A DNA stretch of 64,000 nucleotides. It comes from Deltaproteobacteria bacterium. GTDB lineage: Bacteria; Myxococcota_A; Polyangia; Polyangiales; Houyiibacteriaceae. Numbering within the stretch: the first letter of the stretch is position 1; each line of letters opens with the position of its first letter. Positions 3,192 through 60,426 of this stretch are shown here, piece by piece. A program made the translations under genes and the position numbers. Location: the NCBI GenBank assembly GCA_034670305.1, contig JAXMNT010000001.1, forward strand, positions 192,001 through 256,000, written 5' to 3'. Below the pieces are notes generated by a model. It saw nothing but the letters and a program-made list of their open reading frames with translations, was not told the origin of the DNA and ran no database searches.

Positions 3192-3288
3192 GAACGAAGT
3201 CGCGGTCGCAGTGGAGCGGGGGTTCTGCGACGGAACTCCCCCCACTCCCCCACAACTCCCCCGAACTCTCCCCAAAACGGTTTCGGAT

Positions 3289-3448
3289 TCGGCAGCGGCA
3301 GTGGCAGCGGCAGCGGCAGTGGCAGTGGCACCAGCAGTCACAGCATCAGCGACAGCCCATGCTCTCCTTCGGAGTCGCGCGGTTTGTAGCCTCTCCTTCG
3401 GAAGTCGGCTCCTTCGTCCTTCGGACTCGGAGTGACCTGGGGGTGGGC
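3289..3448 (+). repeat. 160-bp direct repeat, copy 1 (pairs with 4080-4239)
   Basis: Manual alignment: 158/160 identical, mismatches at 3308/4099 and 3359/4150. Confidence 0.95.
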
Positions 3449-3626
3449 TTGCTGGCTCGGCGGGATCTTGATGGTGGCGGAGTGCTCGGGCGCGTCAAGG
3501 GTGCCTTCGGCCCCAGCCTTCGGAAGGCTGGCTTCGCCCTTGACCCGCCCTCCGCTCTCCACCGGGGGCGCACGGGGTGCGCCGCCGAGCAATGTCGCTC
3601 TGGTGTGTGGCGCGTTGGAGGCTGTG
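3385..3626 (+). other. Conserved structured non-coding leader, copy 1
   Basis: Homologous to 8855-9100 and 14424-14657; nested inverted repeats 3455-3463/3582-3590 and 3494-3501/3537-3544. Confidence 0.85.
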
Positions 3627-3938
3627 ATGATTGTTCTCGAATCTTGTTTCGTTCTCGTTGGTGAGTTGCGCGGGGTGCTGGCGGCTGTTTCTCGCCGGGA
3701 CCGTTCGCTGGGTGACCAGATGCGGCGGGCGGCTCAGTCCGTCGTTCTGAACTGCGCCGAAGCGAAGAACGCGCGGGGCAAGCGGAGCGTGGACCGCTTC
3801 TCCATCGCATACGGCGAAGCGAGTGAGCTGAAGGCGGCTCTTCGGTTGGTGCGGTTGTTCGGCTACGCGGAGGTTGGCGAGGAGGTGATGCGGCGGTGCG
3901 ACGAGGTCTGCGCGATGTTGTATCGGCTCAGTCGCTAG
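3627..3938 (+). CDS. Four-helix-bundle protein (23S rRNA IVP/TIGR02436-like; Avd-like fold)
   Basis: 103 aa; GGAGG RBS; L.DQMRRAA.SV.LN.AE and F.IA.GE..EL motifs; ~60% identical to 14658-14972 by manual count. Confidence 0.85.
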   Translation: MIVLESCFVLVGELRGVLAAVSRRDRSLGDQMRRAAQSVVLNCAEAKNARGKRSVDRFSIAYGEASELKAALRLVRLFGYAEVGEEVMRRCDEVCAMLYRLSR

Positions 3939-4001
3939 ACCGGCTGCGAGGCCCGCGCGAGTCGCGGGCCTCGGCGTCGGCAGCGCCAGGGGCAGCGGCT
4001 T

Positions 4002-4120
4002 TCGGCGTCGGCTTTGGCGTCGGCCTCGGCTTCGGCCTCGGCGTCGGCCTCGGCGTCGGCTTCGGCGTCGGCCTCGGCATCGGCAGCGGCAGTGGCAGTG
4101 GCAGCGGCAGTGGCAGTGGC
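4002..4120. repeat. Hexamer microsatellite (TCGGCN)n then (GGCAGY)n
   Basis: Period-6 tract visible directly. Confidence 0.9.
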
Positions 4121-4239
4121 ACCAGCAGTCACAGCATCAGCGACAGCCCGTGCTCTCCTTCGGAGTCGCGCGGTTTGTAGCCTCTCCTTCGGAAGTCGGC
4201 TCCTTCGTCCTTCGGACTCGGAGTGACCTGGGGGTGGGC
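4080..4239 (+). repeat. 160-bp direct repeat, copy 2
   Basis: See 3289-3448. Confidence 0.95.
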
Positions 4240-8744: not shown

Positions 8745-8856
8745 AGAAGCAGCTGCAGACGCGGTGGCACAGCAGAAGCAGCGGCAGAAGCAGCGACAGA
8801 AGCAGCGGCAGGAGCAGCGACAGCGGCAGAAGCAGCGACAGCGGCGGAAGCAGCTG
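8745..8856. repeat. Hexamer microsatellite (GCAGAA/GCAGCG/ACAGCG)n
   Basis: Period-6 tract directly upstream of leader copy 2. Confidence 0.85.
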
Positions 8857-9100
8857 TAGCCTCTTCCTTCGGAAAGTCGGCTCCTTGCAATCCTTTGGAT
8901 TTTGGGAACACCCCAATTGGTTGGGCTTGCTGGCTCGGCGGCAGATTGATGGTGGCGGAGTGCTCGCCTGCGTCAAGGGTGGCCTTCGGCCCCCAGCCGA
9001 TGCGGCTGGCTTCGCCCTGGACCCAGGCTCCGCTCTCCACCGGGGGCGCTCCGCGCCGCCGAGCAATGTCGCTCTGGTGTTTGGCGCGTTGGAGGTCCTG
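8855..9100 (+). other. Conserved structured non-coding leader, copy 2
   Basis: Strong similarity to 3385-3626, with compensatory stem changes. Confidence 0.85.
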
Positions 9101-13922: not shown

Positions 13923-13934
13923 CGGCCCGCGTGT

Positions 13935-14420
13935 GGGCTGTGTTGCTGTTCGCTGTTCGCTGTTGCGGTTGCTGACTCTGACGCTGACGCTGACGCTGAC
14001 GCTGTTGCTGATTCTGATTCTGATTCTGATTCTGACTCTGATTCTGACTCTGATTCTGATTCTGACGTCGCAGCCGAAGCCGAACCCGAAGCCGAAGCCA
14101 CATCCGAATCCGAATCCAAAGCCGACGCCGAAGCCGACGCCGAAGCCGAAGCCGAAGCAGACGCCGAAGCAGACGCCGAAGCCGATTCCGCCACCACGAC
14201 CCCCACCGCTACCGCGACCCCCACCGCTACCGCGACCCCCACCGCTACCGCGACCCCCACCGCTACCGCTACGCGACCCCCACCGCTACCGCGACCCCTA
14301 CCGCTACCGCTACCGCTACCGCGACCGCCTCCGCCTCCGCTTCCGCTTCCGCTTCCGCGACCGCTTCCGCTTCCGCGACCGCTTCCGCGACCGCTCCGCT
14401 TCCGCGACCAGGACCGCACC
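13935..14420. repeat. Compound microsatellite: (GCTGTTC), (TGACGC)n, (TGATTC)n, (GCCGAA)n, 18-mer CCACCGCTACCGCGACCC, (CCGCTT)n
   Basis: Visible directly; ends at leader copy 3. Confidence 0.95.
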
Positions 14421-14423
14421 GCT

Positions 14424-14657
14424 TGTAGCCTCTCCTTCGGAGTCGGCCTCATCCTCTCCTTCGGAATCGGATTCGGGTCCGATGGGGCTGGGGTTGTGCC
14501 CGGCGGGAGGTCAAGCGTGTCGTCTGGCGTGCCAGGCCTCAAGGGGGCCTACGGCCCGGCGGGATGCCCGCCGCTTCCTTGACCCCTGACCCGCCAGACG
14601 ACGGCGGCCTGCGGCCGCCGGGCATGTCGCTCGGTCGTCGTCACACAGGGGTCTCCG
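14424..14657 (+). other. Conserved structured non-coding leader, copy 3 (divergent)
   Basis: Shares TGTAGCCTCTCCTTCGGAGTCGGC, TCAAGG/CCTTGA and ATGTCGCTC; same stem topology with different stem sequences. Confidence 0.8.
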
Positions 14658-14972
14658 ATGATCGTTCTTCAAACTTCCTTCGAACTCGTGCGTTCGCTGC
14701 GCGCTCAGGTACTGCCGCTCGTACGCAAACACGACGCTTCGCTAGCGTCACAGATGCAGCGCGCGGCGCAGTCCGTGGTTCTGAACATCGCAGAGGCTCG
14801 GCAGGCGCGAGGACTTCGTTGTCATGACAAGTTCTCGATTGCCTACGGAGAGTGCAGCGAGCTGAAGGCTGCGATTCAGCTCGCTGAGGTCTTTGGGTAC
14901 ATCGACCTGGACGCGACGCTCCTCGATCGGTGCGACTACGTCTGCGCGATGCTGTACAAGCTCAGCCGTTGA
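14658..14972 (+). CDS. Four-helix-bundle protein, paralog 2
   Basis: 104 aa; QMQRAAQSVVLNIAEA and FSIAYGECSELKAA. Confidence 0.85.
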   Translation: MIVLQTSFELVRSLRAQVLPLVRKHDASLASQMQRAAQSVVLNIAEARQARGLRCHDKFSIAYGECSELKAAIQLAEVFGYIDLDATLLDRCDYVCAMLYKLSR

Positions 14973-15053
14973 GGTTCGGCCGGCGTCCAAGGGGCGCCGG
15001 CCCCTGAGCCAAGGGCGGAGCGTCCGCCGGACGCTCCGCTTCGCGCCCGCCCA

Positions 15054-20844: not shown

Positions 20845-22926
20845 TCAGTACTCAGGCGGCTCAGACGGCCGCACCCCCACCGCCCGAGGCTCACCGGAAT
20901 CAGAATCCGGCCCATCGGCATCGGAGTCGGCTCCAGAGTCGGAGTCGGAGTCGGAGTCGGAGTCGGAGTCGGATTCGGATTCGGATTCGGATTCGGCCTC
21001 GGAGTCGGCCTCGGCTTCGGCTTCGGCTTCGGCTTCGGTTTCGGATTCGGCTTCGGCTTCGGAAGCGGAAGCGGAAGCGGCTTCGGAACCGGAACCGGAA
21101 GCGGCTTCGGAAGCGGAAGCGGAAGCTCCAGGCTTCTCCCCCCCCGCCCACCGCTCGAGCCCGCCATCCATCGGCGCCGGTGGCGGGTTCGACGCCAACG
21201 CGGGCGGGATGAAACTCACCCGCGACCCGGCCGCCTCGGCCGCCGCCGCCTCGCGCTTCTCGCGTTGCACCGCCACCGCACTGGCGATCTTGCGAACGCG
21301 CGCTTCGAGCAGCACCCAGAAGAAGAGCGCGAGCAACCCGTAGACGACCACGGGCAGCAACACTTCGATCAGCCGGTGCACCTGGCCGTCATCCGCGATC
21401 TCGATCCCCAAAATGAGGTGCATGATCGGCGAGAACCGCACGAGCATGGGCGGGTCGTCGTCGAGGTTGTCGAGCGAGTCCGGGTTGATGATGACCGAGG
21501 CGAGCAGCGGCATCACGATCAGCACGAGCACCGTGGCGATGCTGAGGACCCGCGCGGCCACGCCGCTGCGCAACACCACCCGCAACCACGCGCCAAAGCT
21601 CGTGGTGAACAGGCACACCGCGGCGGTGCCGGCGGCGATGCACATGAGCCCCGCGTCGGACTGCAGGTGGTCGGGGTGCGATGGGAACATGTAGTAGCGC
21701 GCCGCCGATGCCGCGATGGCGCTGCCGAAGCTGGCCAGTACGATCATCAATCCGGCAAAGCGGGTGGTCGGCGCTGCGCCCGGGCCGAAGATGCCCAGCG
21801 CCTTGCGTGCGGTGCCCTGTTCCTGTCTGCGCAGCTCCCACAGGCGGGGCGGCAGCGGCGGCTCGTTGATGAACATCAACGCCAGGAAGAAGATCGGAAA
21901 CGACCAGAAGATGTTCATGCCCACGGCGGCTTCGGGGATGTCGTGGTGGTCCCACAGGGTCGTGGTGCCGAACATGATGCCGACCATGCCGACCGCCGCG
22001 ACGATGGCCCACCACTTGAACGGGGTGGACCGGTCTTCGGCGGTTGGACGCACTCCGGCGATGGCCGAGGCGAGGAAGAACCACACCAGCATCACCGAGA
22101 CGTAGATCGGGAGCACGCCGAGCAGCAGGAAGGTGTCGCCTTCGAAGAACCGGTTCGCGAGCGCTTCGGTGAACCAGAACGGCCCACTCATCGTCAGGTC
22201 CCAATCGCGCTCGGCGGCTTCGCCAAACGCGGCCAGGATCAGGGTGGCGATGAAGGAGCTCGGCACGAAGATGCCGAGCGAGAGCAGGATCGAAACCCGC
22301 GTCGAGGTGACCCGTGCGGAGAGCGCGATGCCGAGCGCGACCGCGGGGCCGAGCACGAGGATCAAGCCGTAGAAGCCGATGATCACGTGGAGCGGCGAGA
22401 TGCCGCCGAAGAGGAACGCGATGCCGACGATGGGCGCGAACGCGACCAGCACCAGGGAGAACATCCCGAACGAGGCGAGGAACTTGCCCCACACGATGCG
22501 GGCCGGATCCATGCCCGTGAGAATGAGGGACTCGTACGTGCCCATCTCCCGTTCGCCGGTGAGCGAGGTCGCGGCGTGCGCCGGTGCGACGAGGCAGAGC
22601 ACCATCAGCGCCATCGAGAAGAAGAACTGGAAGACGATCTGCCCGACCTGGGCCGGCGCCATCGATTGAGCTGCGATGGACGCGCCGCTGACCAGAACGA
22701 TCAGCGCGACGAGGCCAGTGCTCAAGTACAAGAAGCGGATGAAGAGCTTGGTGCGGAAGACCGTGCGCAGCTCTTTGACCAAGATCGGGTTCGGATCCCG
22801 GAACCACTCGCGGACGCTGGGCACGAGTCCGCGCTTCTTGGGCGGCGGAAGGCTGGCGCCGGCAGAGGGGTCGGCGGGTGCGCCGGGCTCAGGCACCGAA
22901 CTGGGGGTGGCGGTGGAGGTGCTCAT
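20845..22926 (-). CDS. ABC-2 type permease-like membrane protein with acidic repeat tail
   Basis: [18 protein letters not shown]....RIVWGKF; many TM segments; C-terminal EA/ES/DS repeats. Confidence 0.85.
20935..21126. repeat. In-frame hexamer microsatellite in the permease 3' end
   Basis: (TCGGAG)n (TCGGAT)n (TCGGCT)n (GGAAGC)n. Confidence 0.9.
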
Positions 22927-27075: not shown

Positions 27076-28863
27076 TCAGCGACCTTCGCCGAAGAACGTC
27101 CGTACGTGTTCGCGGTAATCCTCGGGAATGGGCGCGCGCTCGATGCCGCCAGCTTCTCCGCTCACGGCTTCACCGGTCGCACCACCGGTTCCTTCGGCGC
27201 GCCCCGCGACGGGGGTGCCGTCGGGGTTGACCCACTCGGTCCAACTGCGCCCAGGGGCACCGGGGCCGATCATGGGGCGGACCCGGGCGAGTGGACCTTC
27301 GGGGGCGCCGTTGTGCTCGCGGGTTTGACCGCCGCGTTCGCCAGGCCCGCCGCCTTGGCCACCGGTGCCGCCCGCGCCCGCTCCGCCGCCGTTTCCGTTC
27401 CCGTTCCCGTTCCCGTTCCCGTTCCCGTTCCCGTTTCCGTTTCCGTTCCCGTTTCCGTTTCCGTTCCCGTTTCCGTTCCCGTTTCCGTTTCCGTTCCCGT
27501 TTCCGTTTCCGTTTCCGTTCCCGTTTCCGTTTCCGTTTCCGTTGCCCTGACCGGGCATCGGCATGCCGCCTTGGCCGGCTCCGCCAGTCTGCGCTTGCAG
27601 GTCGTCGAGGTGTTCGAGTGCTTCGCGGAGCATGCGTTCGTATTCGTCGGCGCTGATCGGTTGTCCGCCGCCCGCTTCGGCATTCTGTTGCGCGGCGTCG
27701 TTTTCCGCGGCTTGGGCGTTTCGGAGCGCCTCGGCGAGTCGCTCGCGTTCTTCCGCACTCAAGCGGCTCCAGGCGTCGCGCATCGCGTCGACCATCTCCT
27801 GGGTGAGCTCGCTGCCATCGCCGTCCCGTTCGAGCCGTTCGAGCTGGCGGCGCACTCCGTCGCCCTGCATCTCCGGCATCGCCTCCGAGAGTTCGCGCGC
27901 GAGCTCTGCTTGCTGGCTGCGTCGGTCGAGCAACCGCTCTCGGTTCAAGAGCGATTCCGCCAGCGCTTCGTCGCCTTCTTCGCGTGCGGCTTCGGCGGCT
28001 TGTTGAAGGGCCTGTCGCGCGGCGTCCCGGTCCGCCTGTTCGCGTTGCGCGGCGGCACGCTCCACGGCCCGATCGAGCGACTCGAGATCCCGCTCTGCGA
28101 GTGCACGCGCCATCTCGGGCTGCGACTCGAGTGCGTCCACAGCGGCGTCGCGGGCGCGCCGCTCTTCTGGGGTCACCGGGCGCCGGGTCTCCTCGACCCG
28201 CTCGCGCAGCGCGTCGAGGGCATCGAGCGCTTCCCGCTGCTCGAGTCCTTCCGCCAGTTGGTGCCGCAGCTCGGCCGCTTCCCGCGCCAACTCCTCGAGT
28301 TCGCGCTCGTGTTCCTCATCCCGAGCGAAGTCCTGCAGACGTTCGATGCGGCGAAGTGCATCGGCGTCGTCGATCTGGACTTCGGTCGGCGCGGGTCCGG
28401 TCGTCTCGGGGGGCGGCACCGGCACGAAGAGCGCAGCCACGAAGAACGTCCCGGCGAAGGGCACGCTCCAGAGGTGGTTGCCGAAGACCCGTGGTCGGAC
28501 GTCCTTGGCCTTGGCCGCCGACAGCTTGGACTCGGCCGCTGCGACCGCCATGGCGCCGAACTCGTCGGGCTGTGCGCCGAGGCCCCATGCGGTCACGATG
28601 CTGGCACCGGCATCGAGTTGTTCGTCGACGTAGAGGACCAGGTCGGACTCGCTGGGCAACTTTCGGATCGCCCAGATCAATCCGGCGATCGGTCCAAGCG
28701 CGAGCAGGGCGAGACCAGGCCAGCGAGGCCACGTGGGCAGGCCGAGCGCCACCACGAGCAGCAACGCCCCGAGCACCACGGCGACCGTCACGCTCACGGA
28801 CACGACGCGCCGAGCCAAGAGGGCCCTGCGAATGGTGGCGATCAGTGGGTGAAGTCGGTTCAT
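27076..28863 (-). CDS. Membrane-anchored coiled-coil protein with (GN)n tract (start uncertain)
   Basis: N-terminal TM segments; long E/R/A helical region; C-terminal IPEDYREHVRTFF. Confidence 0.75.
   Translation of the reverse strand: MNRLHPLIATIRRALLARRVVSVSVTVAVVLGALLLVVALGLPTWPRWPGLALLALGPIAGLIWAIRKLPSESDLVLYVDEQLDAGASIVTAWGLGAQPDEFGAMAVAAAESKLSAAKAKDVRPRVFGNHLWSVPFAGTFFVAALFVPVPPPETTGPAPTEVQIDDADALRRIERLQDFARDEEHERELEELAREAAELRHQLAEGLEQREALDALDALRERVEETRRPVTPEERRARDAAVDALESQPEMARALAERDLESLDRAVERAAAQREQADRDAARQALQQAAEAAREEGDEALAESLLNRERLLDRRSQQAELARELSEAMPEMQGDGVRRQLERLERDGDGSELTQEMVDAMRDAWSRLSAEERERLAEALRNAQAAENDAAQQNAEAGGGQPISADEYERMLREALEHLDDLQAQTGGAGQGGMPMPGQGNGNGNGNGNGNGNGNGNGNGNGNGNGNGNGNGNGNGNGNGNGNGNGNGNGNGGGAGAGGTGGQGGGPGERGGQTREHNGAPEGPLARVRPMIGPGAPGRSWTEWVNPDGTPVAGRAEGTGGATGEAVSGEAGGIERAPIPEDYREHVRTFFGEGR
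27390..27545. repeat. (CCGTTY)n hexamer tract encoding Gly-Asn repeats
   Basis: About 25 hexamer units, in frame. Confidence 0.95.
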
Positions 28864-30575: not shown

Positions 30576-30619
30576 GGCGCGAGGGTCGCCGAGTGCCGTA
30601 CGGGGGTCAATCGCGGACC

Positions 30620-30922
30620 CGGACGGAAGCGGAACCGGAAGCGGAAGCGGAAGCGGAAGCGGAAGCGGACGCGGAAGCGGGAGCGGGAGCGGAAGCGGAA
30701 GCGGAAGCCGAAGCGGAAGCGGAAGCGGGAGCGGTAGCCGAAGCGGAAGCGGAAGCGGAAGCGGGAGCGGTAGCCGAAGCGGAAGCGGAAGCGGAAGCCG
30801 AAGCCGACGCGGAAGCCGAAGCCGAAGCCGATGCCGAATCCGAAGCCGAAGCCGACGCCGAAGCCGACGCCGAAGCCGACGCCGATGCCGAAGCCGATGC
30901 CGATGCCGAAGCCGAATCCGCC
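30620..30922. repeat. Intergenic hexamer microsatellite (GGAAGC)n / (GCCGAA,GCCGAC,GCCGAT)n
   Basis: Visible directly. Confidence 0.95.
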
Positions 30923-30925
30923 GAC

Positions 30926-32791
30926 TTAGTTCGCCCTGGGCTCGAGGGAGAGGAGCCACTGGACGAGGCGGGCGTCGGCGGACTGGGCGCCGCTGCGATC
31001 GAGGACGACGTCGACGTCGCGGAACATCCAGGCAGCGGCCAACTTCAAACCGTGCGCGGGTGGGTCGGGGGCGGCGGCCGCCGCGGGATCGAGCTGAACG
31101 AGCACGCGGCTCGGCGTGGGCGACGAGGTGTCGAGCGCGCGTGCGTAGGGGCTCCAGCCGGAGGGCTCCGCGCCATACTCTTCCCGCCAGCCGAGTCCGT
31201 CGCCGAGCAAGGGGCCGCGCGACAGATCGGCGACGGGGTCCCGGAGCACCACGGCGTGTCCACGCGAACCAGCGAGCGCAGCCAAGACGCCGCCATGGGA
31301 CCAACCGAAGAAGACGAGCGCGCTTCGGGGCGCCACGGCTTCGGCGATCCGGCGAAGTCGCTCTGCGCTGCGCAGTTTGCCCGCGGCCGTGCCTTCGAGG
31401 TGCCACTCGCTGCGACGCGGCGCACCGCCCGGCACATCCGCGAACACCCACCGGCCGCCTGCGGCAAGCCACGCCGCGACTTCGGGTCGGTACCGTGCCC
31501 GCGCCGTGCGTCCGAACGCGCCCATCGCTTCGACGACGGTCGCGCGTTCGTGGCCGCCGCCATCGGCGACGTATGCATGTTCGCCGGCGGCTTCGAACCG
31601 CACCCCGGGGACGCGCGGTCCATCTTCGAACATCACCCGCGTGGTGCCGCTCGCGGAGAGGCGGAGCAGCCTCGGCGGCGTGCTCGGATTGCTCCAGAGG
31701 ACCCACGCGCCCATCGCGTCTCCCGCCAGTGCGTCCACCACACCAGGCTCCATGCGGACTGGATGGAGTGCGCCCGAGTCGAGCGTGCGCATCGTCGAGA
31801 TGGGTCCTTCGTCGTACGCGAGCAGGATCGCGTCGCCAAGCCTGCACGCGCGGCTGGGATGACCCACTTCGGCGTTCTGCCACGCGTCGGCCAGATGGGC
31901 GCGGGCGACCGACGCGGTGCGCGCGACGCCGCCGTCGATGATGGTGACGCGCCGTTCCTGCGCGACCACGAGCGCGTCGCTGCTGACGGTCGCGACCAAC
32001 GCGTCGTTCAGCGGCGCGTCCGCGCGGGTGCTCTGACGACCATCCACCCGCCACACCTCCATGGTCCGTCCGCGGGTGACCGCAGCCACGATCCACGGAT
32101 CGGACGCCGCGTAGAGCGTGACTCGGTCGCCGATGCGCGTCTGGTCGAACACCAACTGCGAGGGGCCGCCGGCCGCCGCCACGGAGTACACGCGGGGAGG
32201 ACCGCCGTCCTCGTCGAACCCGACTTCGCGCAGGGTCGGCGCGCGCACGAAGAAGAGGGTCTCTCCCGACGTGTTCCACACGGGGTCGACGTCGTGCGCG
32301 GTGGGCAACACGCGCGGCTCGAACGCACCGCGCGCCATCTCGAGACCCTCCGCCGTCAAGAACGCGAGTTGCCCGTCCCGCGCGGCGGCGTACGCCCGCG
32401 GAAGCGGCTGGGTCTGCGAGAGGGTGCCGGCGCGGAAGAACGCGATCTGCTCCCCGTGCTCCACCCACGCCGACGCCGACTCGGCGTCGCCGTCGGTGCC
32501 CGGGTCTGCGGCCACCACGTCCGAGACACCGAGGGTGGGGCGAAACGTCCTCGGAGGTTGGTCGTCGAACCGCGCGGCGTGTCGCTCCACGGTCGCCAGC
32601 CAGCGTCGGGCAGTGGTGGAGAGTTCGGCCTGTTCCAGCGAACGAAACGGGTCGTCCGGGGTGCCCTCGGCCCGAATGGCCAACAGGTCGGGGTCGGGTT
32701 CTGGTGGCTGCACCGGACGTTCGACGACCACCGGAGGGCGTCCGCACCCGAGGGCAAGACACACGAGAAAACCGACGAGGCGGGGAGTCAC
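30926..32791 (-). CDS. Lipoprotein with divergent S9/prolyl-oligopeptidase-like architecture
   Basis: LALGC lipobox; propeller-like middle region; GWSHGG nucleophile elbow; WREEYG. Confidence 0.55.
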   Translation of the reverse strand: MTPRLVGFLVCLALGCGRPPVVVERPVQPPEPDPDLLAIRAEGTPDDPFRSLEQAELSTTARRWLATVERHAARFDDQPPRTFRPTLGVSDVVAADPGTDGDAESASAWVEHGEQIAFFRAGTLSQTQPLPRAYAAARDGQLAFLTAEGLEMARGAFEPRVLPTAHDVDPVWNTSGETLFFVRAPTLREVGFDEDGGPPRVYSVAAAGGPSQLVFDQTRIGDRVTLYAASDPWIVAAVTRGRTMEVWRVDGRQSTRADAPLNDALVATVSSDALVVAQERRVTIIDGGVARTASVARAHLADAWQNAEVGHPSRACRLGDAILLAYDEGPISTMRTLDSGALHPVRMEPGVVDALAGDAMGAWVLWSNPSTPPRLLRLSASGTTRVMFEDGPRVPGVRFEAAGEHAYVADGGGHERATVVEAMGAFGRTARARYRPEVAAWLAAGGRWVFADVPGGAPRRSEWHLEGTAAGKLRSAERLRRIAEAVAPRSALVFFGWSHGGVLAALAGSRGHAVVLRDPVADLSRGPLLGDGLGWREEYGAEPSGWSPYARALDTSSPTPSRVLVQLDPAAAAAPDPPAHGLKLAAAWMFRDVDVVLDRSGAQSADARLVQWLLSLEPRAN

Positions 32792-53683: not shown

Positions 53684-53905
<222 letters not shown>

Positions 53906-53907
53906 CG

Positions 53908-54438
53908 TCAACGCAGCAGGTCGAGCTCCTCGAACACGATGGCCAACATGTACGCGCGGAAGATGCCGCCCGCGTCGCCCCAGCCCATCCTCCAAGGCAT
54001 CTGATGCGGGTTCACGGTGCGGCGTCCCAAGTCGTTGCGGAGAAATCCTTGGAGCGCCTGCCGCACCGCGCGCAGGTCCCATTGCCAGTCGGGGCGCGCG
54101 GCCGCGATCTCGTCGAGCCGAGGCTTCGCGTCTCGGGCCTTCTCCAGAATGTCCATGTAGGCATGCGTCAACGGGGGCGCCTCGGGATGGCGCTGGGTGC
54201 GAATCAGCGCTTCGGCAATTCTCGAGTCCGCGCCGATCTCCGACGGGTCGGGGTAGTGGCGACCCAACGGTGGCACCAGACCATAGAGCAGCGCTCCGAC
54301 CGCCTTGGCGGTGGTGGTCGCCTGCGAGATCACGTCGTTGACGAGCGGATCCCGGAACTCGCCTGTCGTCGGGTTCAGAGCGCGCCGTACCTGCCGCTCG
54401 ATGTCGGAGAAATCGAGGGCACGAATCTCCGAGTGCAT
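53908..54438 (-). CDS. Hypothetical protein
   Basis: 176-aa ORF with plausible composition, directly after the HAD gene. Confidence 0.6.
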   Translation of the reverse strand: MHSEIRALDFSDIERQVRRALNPTTGEFRDPLVNDVISQATTTAKAVGALLYGLVPPLGRHYPDPSEIGADSRIAEALIRTQRHPEAPPLTHAYMDILEKARDAKPRLDEIAAARPDWQWDLRAVRQALQGFLRNDLGRRTVNPHQMPWRMGWGDAGGIFRAYMLAIVFEELDLLR

Positions 54439-60008: not shown

Positions 60009-60426
60009 GATCGGCGGCGAGCACGTGCAGGCCGCCAGTCTCGCGAAGCGAGCCAGGCCCGCACCGAAACAAGAGTCACCGGTCGTGCACCTGCGCAGCC
60101 GCAGGCGAGCAACTGGTGCACTCCTCCATGGATCACCGAGCGCCGAACCGACGCGGTGCAGCCGAGCGAAGCGAGCCAGCCGTGTCACCGGGACGGGGTT
60201 TGGGGGCTGTGCCCCCGAGCAAGAGGAGCGCCTGGACGCCGCGCAGCCGCCACTTGTCCCAAGTGCATCTTCACTGAACCAAGGGATCGGCGGCGAGCAC
60301 GTGCAGGCAGCCCAGGTGGGGAGGAGGCCGAAGGCCGGAGGGGGAACCCTTCCCCCTCTGAAAACGACGGGCACGACTTAGGGCCGCCAGTCTCGCGAAG
60401 CGAGCCAGGCCCGCACCGAAACAAGA
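60009..60426 (+). repeat. Dispersed element, copy B, with 45-bp direct repeats and two palindromic inserts
   Basis: 60030-60074 = 60382-60426; 60009-60032 = 60285-60308; homologous to the reverse complement of 37352-37613. Confidence 0.9.

What the first reader, a model, noticed from the sequence alone, without database searches (positions are those of the whole stretch)
14497..14624. Leader core keeps its base-pairing while the sequence changes (compensatory substitutions)
Seen: outer stem GCTCGGCGG/CCGCCGAGC (3455-63/3582-90; 8933-42/9055-64) becomes TGCCCGGCGG/CCGCCGGGCA (14497-506/14615-24). Second stem GGTGGCGGAG/CTCCGC-TCT-CCACC becomes GTCGTCTGGCG/CGCCAGACGAC (14519-29/14592-602). Third stem varies GGGCG/CGCCC, GCCTG/CAGGC, CAGG/CCTG. 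A near-constant TCAAGG/CCTTGA stem (one mismatch in copy 2) closes a junction of two hairpins in all copies. Inference: selection acts on a folded single-stranded structure, not on coding or simple repetition.
Basis: seen in the sequence. Interest (0 to 1): 0.8.

Follow-up and report, generated by a model that had tools for sequence, protein, structure and literature searches.

The report
Conserved fold beside four-helix-bundle genes
A roughly 130-base multi-hairpin element sits just before each of about 38 small four-helix-bundle genes in this myxobacterial genome and keeps its base pairs while its letters change; the pairing appears to be kept on the strand opposite the gene, so it may not be an ordinary messenger-RNA leader.

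Summary
The element has 38 copies in this 7.9 Mb genome (three in the window), in four sequence types sharing helices P1-P5. On 32 intact copies, 91.7% of cells pair against about 42% when partners are slid, and 25 of 51 pairs change on both sides. Diverged copies with fully covarying P2 occur in other genera. Rfam has no match.

It is the 5' module of a cassette: hexamer array, small hairpins, core, PF05635/TIGR02436 four-helix-bundle gene (Avd / 23S-IVS-protein family), 3' hairpin, second array. Protein (dN/dS 0.06-0.13) and core (p-distance 0.04-0.085 against dS 0.45-0.68) are under purifying selection.

New here: transition-type mismatches inside core helices are all A.C on the gene-sense strand (8 events, no G.T), that is, G.U on the opposite strand. 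The 3' hairpin shows the reverse (5 G.T events, no A.C). Sixty related metagenomic hairpins give 21 A.C against 2 G.T. Opposite-strand loops read C(GNA)G or GNRA.

Best reading (0.4): a cis-antisense structured RNA controlling the gene. Rivals: a sense leader, or a bottom-strand ssDNA fold. No RNA data exist. This scan has noted four-helix-bundle cassettes of other layouts on other DNA.

The parts
13929..14411 (+). 5' hexanucleotide tandem arrays of cassette copy 3 (CTGACG, CTGATT, GCCGAA, ACCGCT and TCCGCT units)
   Evidence: families D1, D3, D4, D7; the array type goes with the cassette type across copies
14425..14479 (+). Two small hairpins, GTAGCC-CTCC(TTC)GGAG..., a motif also found at array junctions elsewhere in the genome
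   Evidence: 97 genomic matches to CTCCTTCGGA, both strands
14484..14496 (+). G-rich tract GGGGCTGGGGTTG directly before P1; a similar tract precedes P1 in all types and in genome G012
14497..14624 (.). Structured core, type A (the finding): P1 14497-14503 with 14618-14624; J1/2; P2 14519-14529 with 14592-14602; P3 CAGG/CCTG; P4 TCAAGG/CCTTGA; apical hairpins P4a and P4b; P5 hairpin. The folded strand is probably the - strand.
   Evidence: (model R2 hit at window 14497-14624, 106 bits)
14625..14657 (+). Spacer with the conserved GTCGCTCGG and the ribosome-binding site (CAGGGG)
14658..14972 (+). Four-helix-bundle protein gene, 104 aa (PF05635 / TIGR02436)
   Evidence: E 1.8e-16; E 1.4e-15; dN/dS 0.09 within type A
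14978..15002 (+). 3' hairpin GGCCGGCGTCC-AAG-GGGCGCCGGCC with a T.G wobble on the sense strand; a terminator-like end of the 4HB mRNA
3455..3590 (.). Structured core, type B (copy 1)
3627..3938 (+). Four-helix-bundle protein gene, 103 aa (copy 1)
3278..3448 (+). 5' module of copy 1: (GGCAGC)n array plus small hairpins. It recurs at 4069-4239 (96% identical) as a cassette 5' part without core or gene.
   Evidence: (D8)
3977..4156 (+). 3' hexamer array of copy 1 (GGCTTC/GGCCTC units), running into the second 5' module
8933..9064 (.). Structured core, type B (copy 2); its gene is lost after the fourth codon (MIVL...)

Best explanation
The core is the conserved structured module at the 5' side of a multi-copy gene cassette. 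The cassette runs: hexamer array, small hairpins, core, ribosome-binding site, 103-104-aa four-helix-bundle (4HB) gene of the PF05635 / Avd / 23S-IVS-protein family, 3' hairpin, second hexamer array.

Shown: the fold is real and kept by selection, the cassette is multi-copy, and the protein is under purifying selection.

Shown, and new here: base pairing in the core is preserved on the strand opposite to the gene, whereas the 3' hairpin is preserved on the gene's own strand.

Inferred: the core is made as part of a cis-encoded antisense RNA. That RNA would start in or near the 5' end of the 4HB gene, run leftwards through the core, and by complementarity to the 4HB 5' UTR and ribosome-binding site hold down translation of the 4HB mRNA. 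This is the layout of IS10 RNA-OUT/RNA-IN or of type I antitoxin RNAs (layout recalled, not tested here). The sense mRNA would end at the 3' hairpin. The conserved internal loops and the invariant TTGAC/GTCAA in P4 may be a protein-binding site, possibly for the 4HB protein itself (inference only).
For: 1. Family and position.
- 38 copies by nhmmer and 39 hits with model R2, one of them weak.
- 31 of 38 copies are followed by an intact 4HB ORF.
- PF05635 and TIGR02436 hits.

2. Selection.
- dN/dS is 0.09, 0.13 and 0.06 within types A, B and C, at dS 0.45-0.68.
- Core p-distance is only 0.04-0.085.

3. Strand.
- Inside helices flanked by Watson-Crick pairs, the 32 copies carry A.C or C.A in 8 distinct events (14 cells), G.T in none, and other mismatches in 9 events.
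- The adjacent ORFs show no matching mutation bias: G>A 65 against C>T 54. Fisher p = 0.02.
- Internal control: of 18 distinct hairpins the script reported, 15 lie after the stop codon. 12 of those carry G.T (about 5 distinct events, counted by eye), none A.C, and 3 are perfect. Core against 3' hairpin gives Fisher p = 0.0008.
- Independent set: 60 distinct hairpins of the related 4HB subfamily from metagenome contigs, oriented by the gene start, give A.C 21, G.T 2, other 15 and Watson-Crick 1572. Binomial p = 6.6e-5.
- In G012 an A.C is fixed inside P2 while neighbouring pairs covary.

4. Loops.
- 40 of 106 predicted terminal loops in the 32 cores are C(TTC)G, C(TGC)G or C(TAC)G on the sense strand, which is C(GNA)G on the opposite strand.
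- In the metagenome set the opposite-strand loops are C(GAA)G 20, C(GAAA)G 12, C(GCCA)G 9, C(GCAA)G 3, C(GGA)G 3 and C(GCA)G 2.

5. Energies.
- The z-score is lower on the opposite strand in 28 of 32 copies.
- RNAalifold energy is lower on the opposite strand in 6 of 6 alignments, by 5-11 kcal/mol.

6. Overlap with translation signals in relatives.
- In L100-L102 the P1 3' strand contains the ribosome-binding site, with the ATG about 4-7 nt after it.
- In the g3-type subfamily a roughly 27-bp hairpin contains the site, with the ATG about 5 nt after it.
Against: - No transcript data of either strand. The only runs that hold the region well are DNA, and 0 contigs from four RNA runs could be laid on it.
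- No promoter was found on either strand by a sigma-70 consensus scan (0 sites).
- The spacer, where an antisense promoter could sit, is among the less conserved parts in types B and C.
- The event counts are small and the copies are kin.
- In 7 of 11 relatives a conserved T.G appears on the sense strand when the TGCTC/TGCG internal loop is forced to pair.
- The model-fitted alignment shows 4 G.U cells on the sense strand.
- RNAalifold predicts more G.U cells on the sense strand than on the opposite strand in type B (39 against 15).
- A ribosome-binding site inside the outer helix is equally what a sense-strand translational repressor would look like.
- Triloops of the GNA kind are better documented as DNA mini-hairpins than as RNA motifs (PMC13037366 abstract and passages; PMC3201870 abstract).
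Confidence: 0.4

Rival explanations
1. Sense-strand 5' leader of the 4HB mRNA. This would be a cis-acting fold that limits translation or serves as an RNase III processing site, as in 23S rRNA intervening sequences that carry the same gene family. The 4HB protein might bind it in autoregulation.
For: - Position: the core ends 33 nt before the ATG in this window.
- In relatives the outer helix or a 27-bp hairpin contains the ribosome-binding site.
- In type A the leader segment GACCCCTG is the exact complement of CAGGGGTC at the ribosome-binding site, seen directly.
- The upstream gene is co-oriented in 23 of 33 callable cases, so read-through could supply a transcript.
- Precedent: the Coxiella IVS carries an S23p ORF and is excised by RNase III (PMC4990558, abstract).
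- The sense strand also folds far better than shuffles (mean z -4.05).
Against: - Mismatch spectrum: 8 A.C events against 0 G.T in the core. The 3' hairpin of the same cassettes shows the opposite, so no general bias explains it. The metagenome set gives 21 against 2.
- Sense-strand loops (UUC, UGC, UUUC) are of no known stable class, whereas the opposite strand gives GNA and GNRA.
- The opposite strand wins on z-score in 28 of 32 copies and on alifold energy in 6 of 6 sets.
- 10 of 33 cassettes have a divergent upstream gene, so read-through cannot be general.
Confidence: 0.3
2. Bottom-strand single-stranded DNA fold. This would be a recombination, priming or mobilisation site of a cassette moved in trans, in the manner of integron attC bottom strands or ssi signals. 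It could also be a cDNA made from the cassette transcript.
For: - On the opposite strand the loops follow G-N(1-2)-A closed by C.G (GCGAAGC, GCGAAAGC, GCGCAAGC, GCGCCAGC, CCGAAGG). This is the 'mini-hairpin DNA' rule. Natural examples are the G4 ssDNA origin and RSF1010 ssiA, which contains CCGAAGG (PMC13037366, abstract and sections 4.1-4.2).
- G.T wobble is tolerated in DNA too.
- The cassette behaves as an inserted unit. 0 of 11 orthologous loci of the upstream glycosyltransferase in other genera carry a 4HB gene or arrays within the 1.5 kb fetched either side of the match.
- Truncated and interrupted copies exist.
- The genome has 11 Y1_Tnp (HUH) genes and 3 reverse transcriptases that could act in trans.
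- The folds at the two ends lie on the strands that run 5'->3' out of the cassette.
Against: - Paralogues are old (dS 0.45-0.68), and every copy keeps its core under purifying selection. That fits a function in place better than a site used once for insertion.
- The copies in complete genome G012 lie on both strands throughout the chromosome, with no visible replication-strand preference. This was judged by eye and not tested.
- No recombinase or reverse transcriptase lies next to any copy examined.
- The integron core sites GTTRRRY / RYYYAAC are not at the base of the fold.
Confidence: 0.2
3. No function of its own: a GC-rich palindromic repeat that hitch-hikes with a duplicated gene.
For: - The genome is full of repeats and hexamer arrays.
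- Both strands of any palindrome fold, and models R1 and R2 also score the reverse strand.
Against: - The core diverges 5-10 times less than synonymous sites.
- Compensatory changes occur between types and genera.
- The mismatch spectrum is strand-asymmetric.
Confidence: 0.03

Closest known systems
23S rRNA intervening sequences (IVS) carrying an S23p / PF05635 ORF (Coxiella burnetii helix-45 IVS; PMC4990558, abstract read)
   Same: - Same protein family: PF05635, E 1.4e-15.
- A small ORF joined to a stable stem structure.
- Behaves as an inserted, dispensable unit.
   Different: - Not in rRNA; it lies between ordinary protein genes.
- The fold lies wholly 5' of the ORF and does not bracket it.
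- 38 copies per genome.
- The ORFs are under strong purifying selection, whereas the abstract says the Coxiella ORF is decaying.
- Pairing appears to be kept on the opposite strand.
Cis-antisense control RNAs at the 5' end of a gene (IS10 RNA-OUT/RNA-IN, hok/sok); recalled, no paper read
   Same: - A structured element whose fold is preserved on the strand opposite to the gene.
- It abuts or overlaps the ribosome-binding site.
   Different: - No antisense transcript or promoter has been shown.
- The fold is much larger (five helices, 128-159 nt).
- The gene is not a transposase or a membrane toxin.
Avd, the accessory four-helix-bundle protein of diversity-generating retroelements (PMC10053308, passages read)
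   Same: PF05635 proteins resemble Avd (PDB 4DWL against 2GSC, per the paper). The profile of this family hits 2gsc at E 3.8e-9.
   Different: - No reverse transcriptase, template repeat or variable repeat lies beside any copy.
- The 3 reverse transcriptase genes of the genome lie elsewhere.
Mini-hairpin DNA GCGN(N)AGC and ssDNA initiation signals (PMC13037366, abstract and sections 4.1-4.2; PMC3201870, abstract)
   Same: Opposite-strand loops fit C(GNA)G and C(GNNA)G, including the literal GCGAAGC, GCGAAAGC and CCGAAGG.
   Different: - Those are phage or plasmid origins read as ssDNA.
- Here the element is chromosomal, multi-branched and tied to a gene.
- C(GAAA)G and C(GCAA)G are equally classic RNA tetraloops (recalled).
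4HB cassettes bracketed by complementary 7-8-nt repeat arrays, noted by this scan in CPR and other phyla (e1-1224852, e1-2723762, e1-1184283; unchecked AI notes)
   Same: - Same gene family.
- Short-period tandem arrays on both sides of the gene.
- Gene-less remnants.
   Different: - Here the arrays have 6-nt units and are not complementary to each other.
- A separate multi-helix core sits between the array and the gene.

Membership tests
Any Rfam family (release 15) | Match to a covariance model | tested here: not met
   0 matches at gathering score over the whole window. 0 matches at E <= 1 on 14380-14700, both strands.
IVS-type element with S23p ORF | ORF of the PF05635 family | tested here: met
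IVS-type element with S23p ORF | Inserted in a helix of 23S or 16S rRNA | tested here: not met
   Neighbours are TPR, penicillin amidase, PhoH, phosphodiesterase and glycosyltransferase genes. No rRNA match in the window.
IVS-type element with S23p ORF | Complementary arms that enclose the ORF | tested here: not met
   No inverted repeat spans the ORF in three cassettes. All helices of the core close before the ATG.
IVS-type element with S23p ORF | Excision by RNase III | not testable with these tools
   Needs an enzyme assay.
Cis-antisense regulatory RNA | Fold conserved on the strand opposite to the target gene | tested here: met
   Suggestive; small numbers of events.
Cis-antisense regulatory RNA | A transcript from the opposite strand with its own promoter | tested here: inconclusive
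   No sigma-70-like site on either strand. No RNA contigs could be laid.
Sense-strand cis-regulatory leader | Structure lies in the 5' UTR and can occlude the ribosome-binding site | tested here: inconclusive
   The site lies inside the outer helix in some relatives but 15-25 nt outside the fold in this genome. The transcription start site is unknown.
Integron attC site | R''/R' core sites RYYYAAC ... GTTRRRY at the base of a bottom-strand hairpin | tested here: not met
   The base of the fold is TGCCCGG/CCGGGCA or GCTCGGC/GCCGAGC. The consensus is recalled.
REP / RAYT system | Short hairpin with a 5' GTAG, in many intergenic copies, plus a Y1 transposase | tested here: inconclusive
   The small upstream hairpins start with GTAGCC and 11 Y1_Tnp genes exist. 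The core itself has no such layout. REP features are recalled.
Retron msr-msd or DGR template RNA | Reverse transcriptase gene adjacent | tested here: not met
   The three RVT_1 genes are at C23, C10:168 kb and C67:18.8 kb. None adjoins a core; the nearest is about 5.6 kb from the C67 copy.

The most novel reading that the evidence does not exclude
The fold is made as single-stranded DNA of the bottom strand. One route would be cDNA copied from the cassette transcript by one of the genome's stand-alone reverse transcriptases, with the Avd-like 4HB protein as cofactor. The flanking hexamer arrays would then be by-products of that copying. This would be a gene-plus-structured-ssDNA module present in dozens of copies per genome across Myxococcota, related in principle to retrons and DGRs but lacking its own reverse transcriptase.
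Probability: 0.08. Interest if true: 0.9.

Novelty: new variant of a known kind. Interest (0 to 1): 0.62.

Why it matters
PF05635 ('23S rRNA intervening-sequence protein' / Avd-like) is a very common bacterial family with no known function outside DGRs. Here it was found in 141 of 301 genomes of this order, usually in many copies.

This work shows that in one lineage each gene copy comes with a conserved, covarying, multi-helix element absent from Rfam. Gene and element are both under purifying selection. The fold seems to be read on the opposite strand, while the cassette's 3' hairpin is read on the gene's strand.

That gives a concrete, testable handle on what these genes do: an RNA (or ssDNA) partner or regulator that can be probed, bound and mutated. 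It also ties the unexplained hexamer microsatellites of these genomes to a defined cassette.

Tried and rejected
- Rfam: no match at gathering score or at E <= 1.
- RNA evidence: the best holders are DNA runs of one study. Five RNA runs held only 0.04 of the sampled words, and none of the four laid gave a contig on the stretch. Nothing can be said about expression.
- Promoter and terminator scans: 0 sigma-70-like sites. The few terminator-like hits lie in the arrays or ORFs.
- A sigma-54-like TGG-N8-TTGC seen by eye before type B cores is not kept in types A and C or in G012. Dropped.
- IVS-type bracketing of the ORF by complementary arms or arrays: not present.
- MAFFT with RNAalifold on all types missed P2 because the types are offset by 1-4 columns. 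Solved by a model-based alignment.
- The search for related loci in genome contigs gave only 4 loci in two records titled 'MAG: Myxococcales bacterium'.
- Model R2 over relatives matched 4 of 40 and 7 of 87 other genomes. Only 37-80 of thousands of first-look candidates per genome were scored, and R2 recovers only 1 of 21 G012 copies even with filters off. Absence elsewhere is therefore not shown.
- An automated mismatch count on 9 G012 copies was inconclusive (G.T 4 events, A.C 4 events) because uncertain pairs in the junction were included and fixed A.C pairs were filtered out.
- Pairing of J1/2 with the multiloop linker or with P4: seen in type A only. Dropped.
- Literature searches. 'TIGR02436': 0 papers. 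PF05635, 'intervening sequence protein', 'S23 ribosomal protein' or 'Avd-like': 20 papers, none on such an element, judged from the listing. 'intervening sequence' + 'four-helix bundle' + 'hairpin' + '23S rRNA': 0 papers. Supplements were not consulted.
- The search of earlier findings by sequence: no look-alike in other windows.

Full report
**What is there.** Each folds into the same architecture:
- an outer helix P1;
- a 12-16-nt single-stranded J1/2;
- a long helix P2 (11 bp in type A; 5 + 5 bp with a 4-nt bulge in type B);
- a short P3;
- a nearly invariant P4 (TCAAGG/CCTTGA) that closes a junction of two small hairpins;
- a hairpin P5 between the 3' strands of P2 and P1.

For 14490-14630 the MFE is -91.5 kcal/mol (z -4.10) on the + strand and -90.5 (z -5.68) on the - strand, with 0 of 200 shuffles as good in either case.

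**How many copies, and beside what.**
- The window lies in a 7.93 Mb, 105-contig assembly. Contigs of two relatives are titled 'MAG: Myxococcales bacterium'.
- nhmmer finds 38 copies of the core. A covariance model finds the same 38 plus one weak hit.
- tblastn finds about 37 genes for 103-104-aa proteins directly downstream. 31 of the 38 cores are followed by an intact ORF. The other 7 are truncated, frameshifted or interrupted.
- The protein is PF05635 / TIGR02436, the '23S rRNA intervening-sequence protein' four-helix bundle. Its nearest solved structure is 2gsc. A paper whose passages I read equates this family with the DGR accessory protein Avd (PMC10053308).
- Neighbouring genes are unrelated housekeeping genes.

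**Covariation.**
- The copies fall into four sequence types: A, B, C (three hairpins in the junction) and D.
- MAFFT offsets the types in P2, so RNAalifold on that alignment recovers only part of the fold. It still finds 7 of 22 pairs with double-sided change.
- I built a model from types C and D with a hand-written structure. I used it to align all 32 intact copies and counted the pairs.
- 91.7% of 1404 cells are paired, against 39.6-44.0% for slid partners. 25 of 51 pairs and 204 cells change on both sides. 0 of 500 shuffles reach the paired percentage or the covariation score.
- One measure, further pair types, is not above the shuffles (423 of 500). The alignment is fitted to the model and the copies are kin, so these figures overstate independence.
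- Independent support comes from other genera. With model R2, copies were found in 4 of 40 and 7 of 87 other genomes searched. Only 37-80 candidates per genome were scored, so absence is not shown.
- These copies share a type-B-like design in which P1 and P2 are rewritten yet remain complementary: P2 is CGCTCCG, GCCGGCG, GCCCTCG, GCTCGCG, ATCGTCG or ACCGTCA. GTGCTCGG and GTCAAGG...CCTTGAC stay constant.
- In the complete genome G012, about 25 copies have the same layout. P4 is either GTAAAGGGC/GCCCTTGAC or GTAAACCCC/GGGGTTGAC.

**The cassette.**
- Sequence identity among copies of one type runs from about 150 nt before the core to about 30 nt past the stop codon.
- Upstream lie one or two small hairpins (GTAGCC-CTCC(TTC)GGAG), and before them a hexamer tandem array. 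After the stop codon comes a GC-rich hairpin and then a second array.
- The array unit goes with the cassette type: GGCAGC before and GGCTTC after type B; CTTCCG-like around type A; GCCGAT or GTCTCA in G012.
Here many of them belong to these cassettes.
- At 4069-4239 the window holds a second 5' module, 96% identical to 3278-3448, without core or gene.
- 0 of 11 orthologous loci of the upstream glycosyltransferase in other genera of the family have a 4HB gene or arrays within the 1.5 kb fetched either side of the match, so the cassette was gained as a unit.
- By a crude GC3-based gene call, the upstream gene is co-oriented in 23 of 33 callable cases and divergent in 10 (5 not callable). The downstream gene is co-oriented in 18 and convergent in 18 (2 not callable).

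**Selection.** Within types, dN/dS is 0.09 (A, 8 copies), 0.13 (B, 13) and 0.06 (C, 10), at dS 0.53, 0.45 and 0.68. The core differs by only 0.085, 0.083 and 0.041 per site. The paralogues are therefore old, and both protein and core are kept by purifying selection in each copy.

**Which strand folds.** This is the unexpected result.
- In helices defined by hand on the unfitted alignment, and counting only positions flanked by Watson-Crick pairs, the 32 copies show A.C or C.A in 8 distinct events (14 cells), G.T in none, and other mismatches in 9 events. The cruder count was 31 A.C against 1 G.T cells. An A.C on the gene-sense strand is a G.U on the opposite strand.
- The adjacent ORFs show no bias that would produce this: G>A 65, C>T 54. 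Fisher p = 0.02.
- The cassette's own 3' hairpin is a mirror-image control. Of 18 distinct hairpins the script reported, 15 lie after the stop codon. 12 of those have a G.T on the sense strand, none an A.C, and 3 are perfect. By eye this is about 5 events. Core against 3' hairpin gives p = 0.0008.
- A second 4HB subfamily in smaller, lower-GC genomes of the same family has a simpler element. It is a roughly 27-bp hairpin, GATCTCCTTT...AAAGGAGATC, that contains the ribosome-binding site, with the ATG about 5 nt after it.
- A pattern scan of metagenome contigs gave 119 loci. 60 distinct hairpins could be oriented by the gene start. They show A.C 21, G.T 2, other 15 and Watson-Crick 1572. p = 6.6e-5.
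- Loops agree. In the cores, 40 of 106 predicted terminal loops are C(TNC)G on the sense strand, which is C(GNA)G on the opposite strand.
- In the metagenome set the opposite-strand loops are C(GAA)G 20, C(GAAA)G 12, C(GCCA)G 9, C(GCAA)G 3, C(GGA)G 3 and C(GCA)G 2.
- z-scores are lower on the opposite strand in 28 of 32 copies (mean -5.40 against -4.05).
- RNAalifold energies are lower there in 6 of 6 alignments.

Against this:
- A conserved T.G appears on the sense strand in 7 of 11 relatives if the TGCTC/TGCG internal loop is forced to pair.
- The fitted alignment has 4 sense-strand G.U cells.
- RNAalifold places more G.U cells on the sense strand in type B.
- The number of independent events is small.

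**What it most likely is.**
- The fold is functional, belongs to the 4HB cassette, and is probably formed by the strand opposite to the gene. The 3' hairpin is formed by the gene's own transcript.
- The simplest mechanism that fits is a cis-antisense RNA. It would contain the core and overlap the 5' UTR or ribosome-binding site of the 4HB mRNA. This layout is known from IS10 RNA-OUT and type I antitoxins (recalled).
- In some relatives the ribosome-binding site lies inside the outer helix. That fits such control but equally fits a sense-strand leader.
- The loop rule G-N(1-2)-A closed by C.G is also that of the very stable DNA mini-hairpins found at ssDNA priming sites (PMC13037366 abstract and sections 4.1-4.2; PMC3201870 abstract). 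A bottom-strand ssDNA fold therefore remains a serious rival.
- The genome has 11 Y1_Tnp and 3 RVT_1 genes that could act in trans.
- No transcript data could be obtained and no promoter was predicted.
- My odds: antisense RNA 0.4, sense leader 0.3, ssDNA 0.2, other about 0.1.

**Comparison with the known.**
- The nearest described thing is the ORF-bearing intervening sequence of 23S rRNA (PMC4990558, abstract). It has the same protein family and a stable stem. It sits in rRNA, its arms enclose the ORF, and it is excised by RNase III from the sense transcript.
- Here two of those defining features were tested and not met.
- Other agents of this scan have reported 4HB cassettes bracketed by complementary 7-8-nt arrays in CPR bacteria and other phyla (e1-1224852, e1-2723762, e1-1184283). 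The present layout (6-nt non-complementary arrays plus a separate five-helix core) is a further variant.
- Rfam has nothing like it, and three literature searches found no description.
- I therefore class it as a new variant of a known kind.

Noticed in passing
window 3291-3356, 3977-4156, 8759-8854, 13929-14411, 20908-21141, 27346-27577, 30599-30952, 53728-53919: Hexanucleotide tandem arrays. Those beside 4HB cassettes flank the cassette on both sides, and the unit goes with the cassette type. Arrays at 20908, 27346, 30599 and 53728 have no cassette next to them.
   Followed up: partly
genome-wide, e.g. window 14425-14479 and 3357-3448: The motif ...ATCCTCTCCTTCGGATTCGG often marks the junction between a (GGGCAN)n array and a (TTCGGN)n array. 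Several copies begin with GTAGCC, reminiscent of REP elements. CTCCTTCGGA has 97 genomic matches.
   Followed up: partly
G000 contigs C20, C31, C38, C68, C1:180072, C11, C59, C14, C55, C15, C63: Eleven genes with a Y1_Tnp (PF01797) domain in open frames of about 233-249 aa. Their relation to the hairpin repeats is unknown.
   Followed up: no
G000 C23:86418, C10:168437, C67:18832: Three reverse-transcriptase (RVT_1) genes, none directly beside a 4HB cassette. One has a long N-terminal extension.
   Followed up: partly
L055 (C28) and L056 (C68): A roughly 70-nt G-rich repeat (...GGAGGGGATGTCCCATCCCCTC...) is inserted in the 5' half of two type B cores. The same repeat ends the truncated copy at C19:96699.
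   Followed up: no
G012 loci L141, L142, L152, L158, L166: A roughly 95-nt element containing ...TGCCGAGCAATAA... is inserted right after the P4 TTGAC in three cores and inside two 4HB ORFs of the relative G012.
   Followed up: no
G012, G266 and g3-genus genomes (e.g. L109, L111): 4HB cassettes often occur as tail-to-tail (convergent) pairs 18-50 nt apart, each with its own upstream structured element. No such pair was seen in this genome.
   Followed up: no
window 60030-60074 and 60382-60426: A perfect 45-nt direct repeat 352 nt apart (family D13).
   Followed up: no
L038 (C18:54461): A type A core is cut off within P5 and continues directly into eight perfect CTGCTT units, as if an array had been added at a break.
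   Followed up: no
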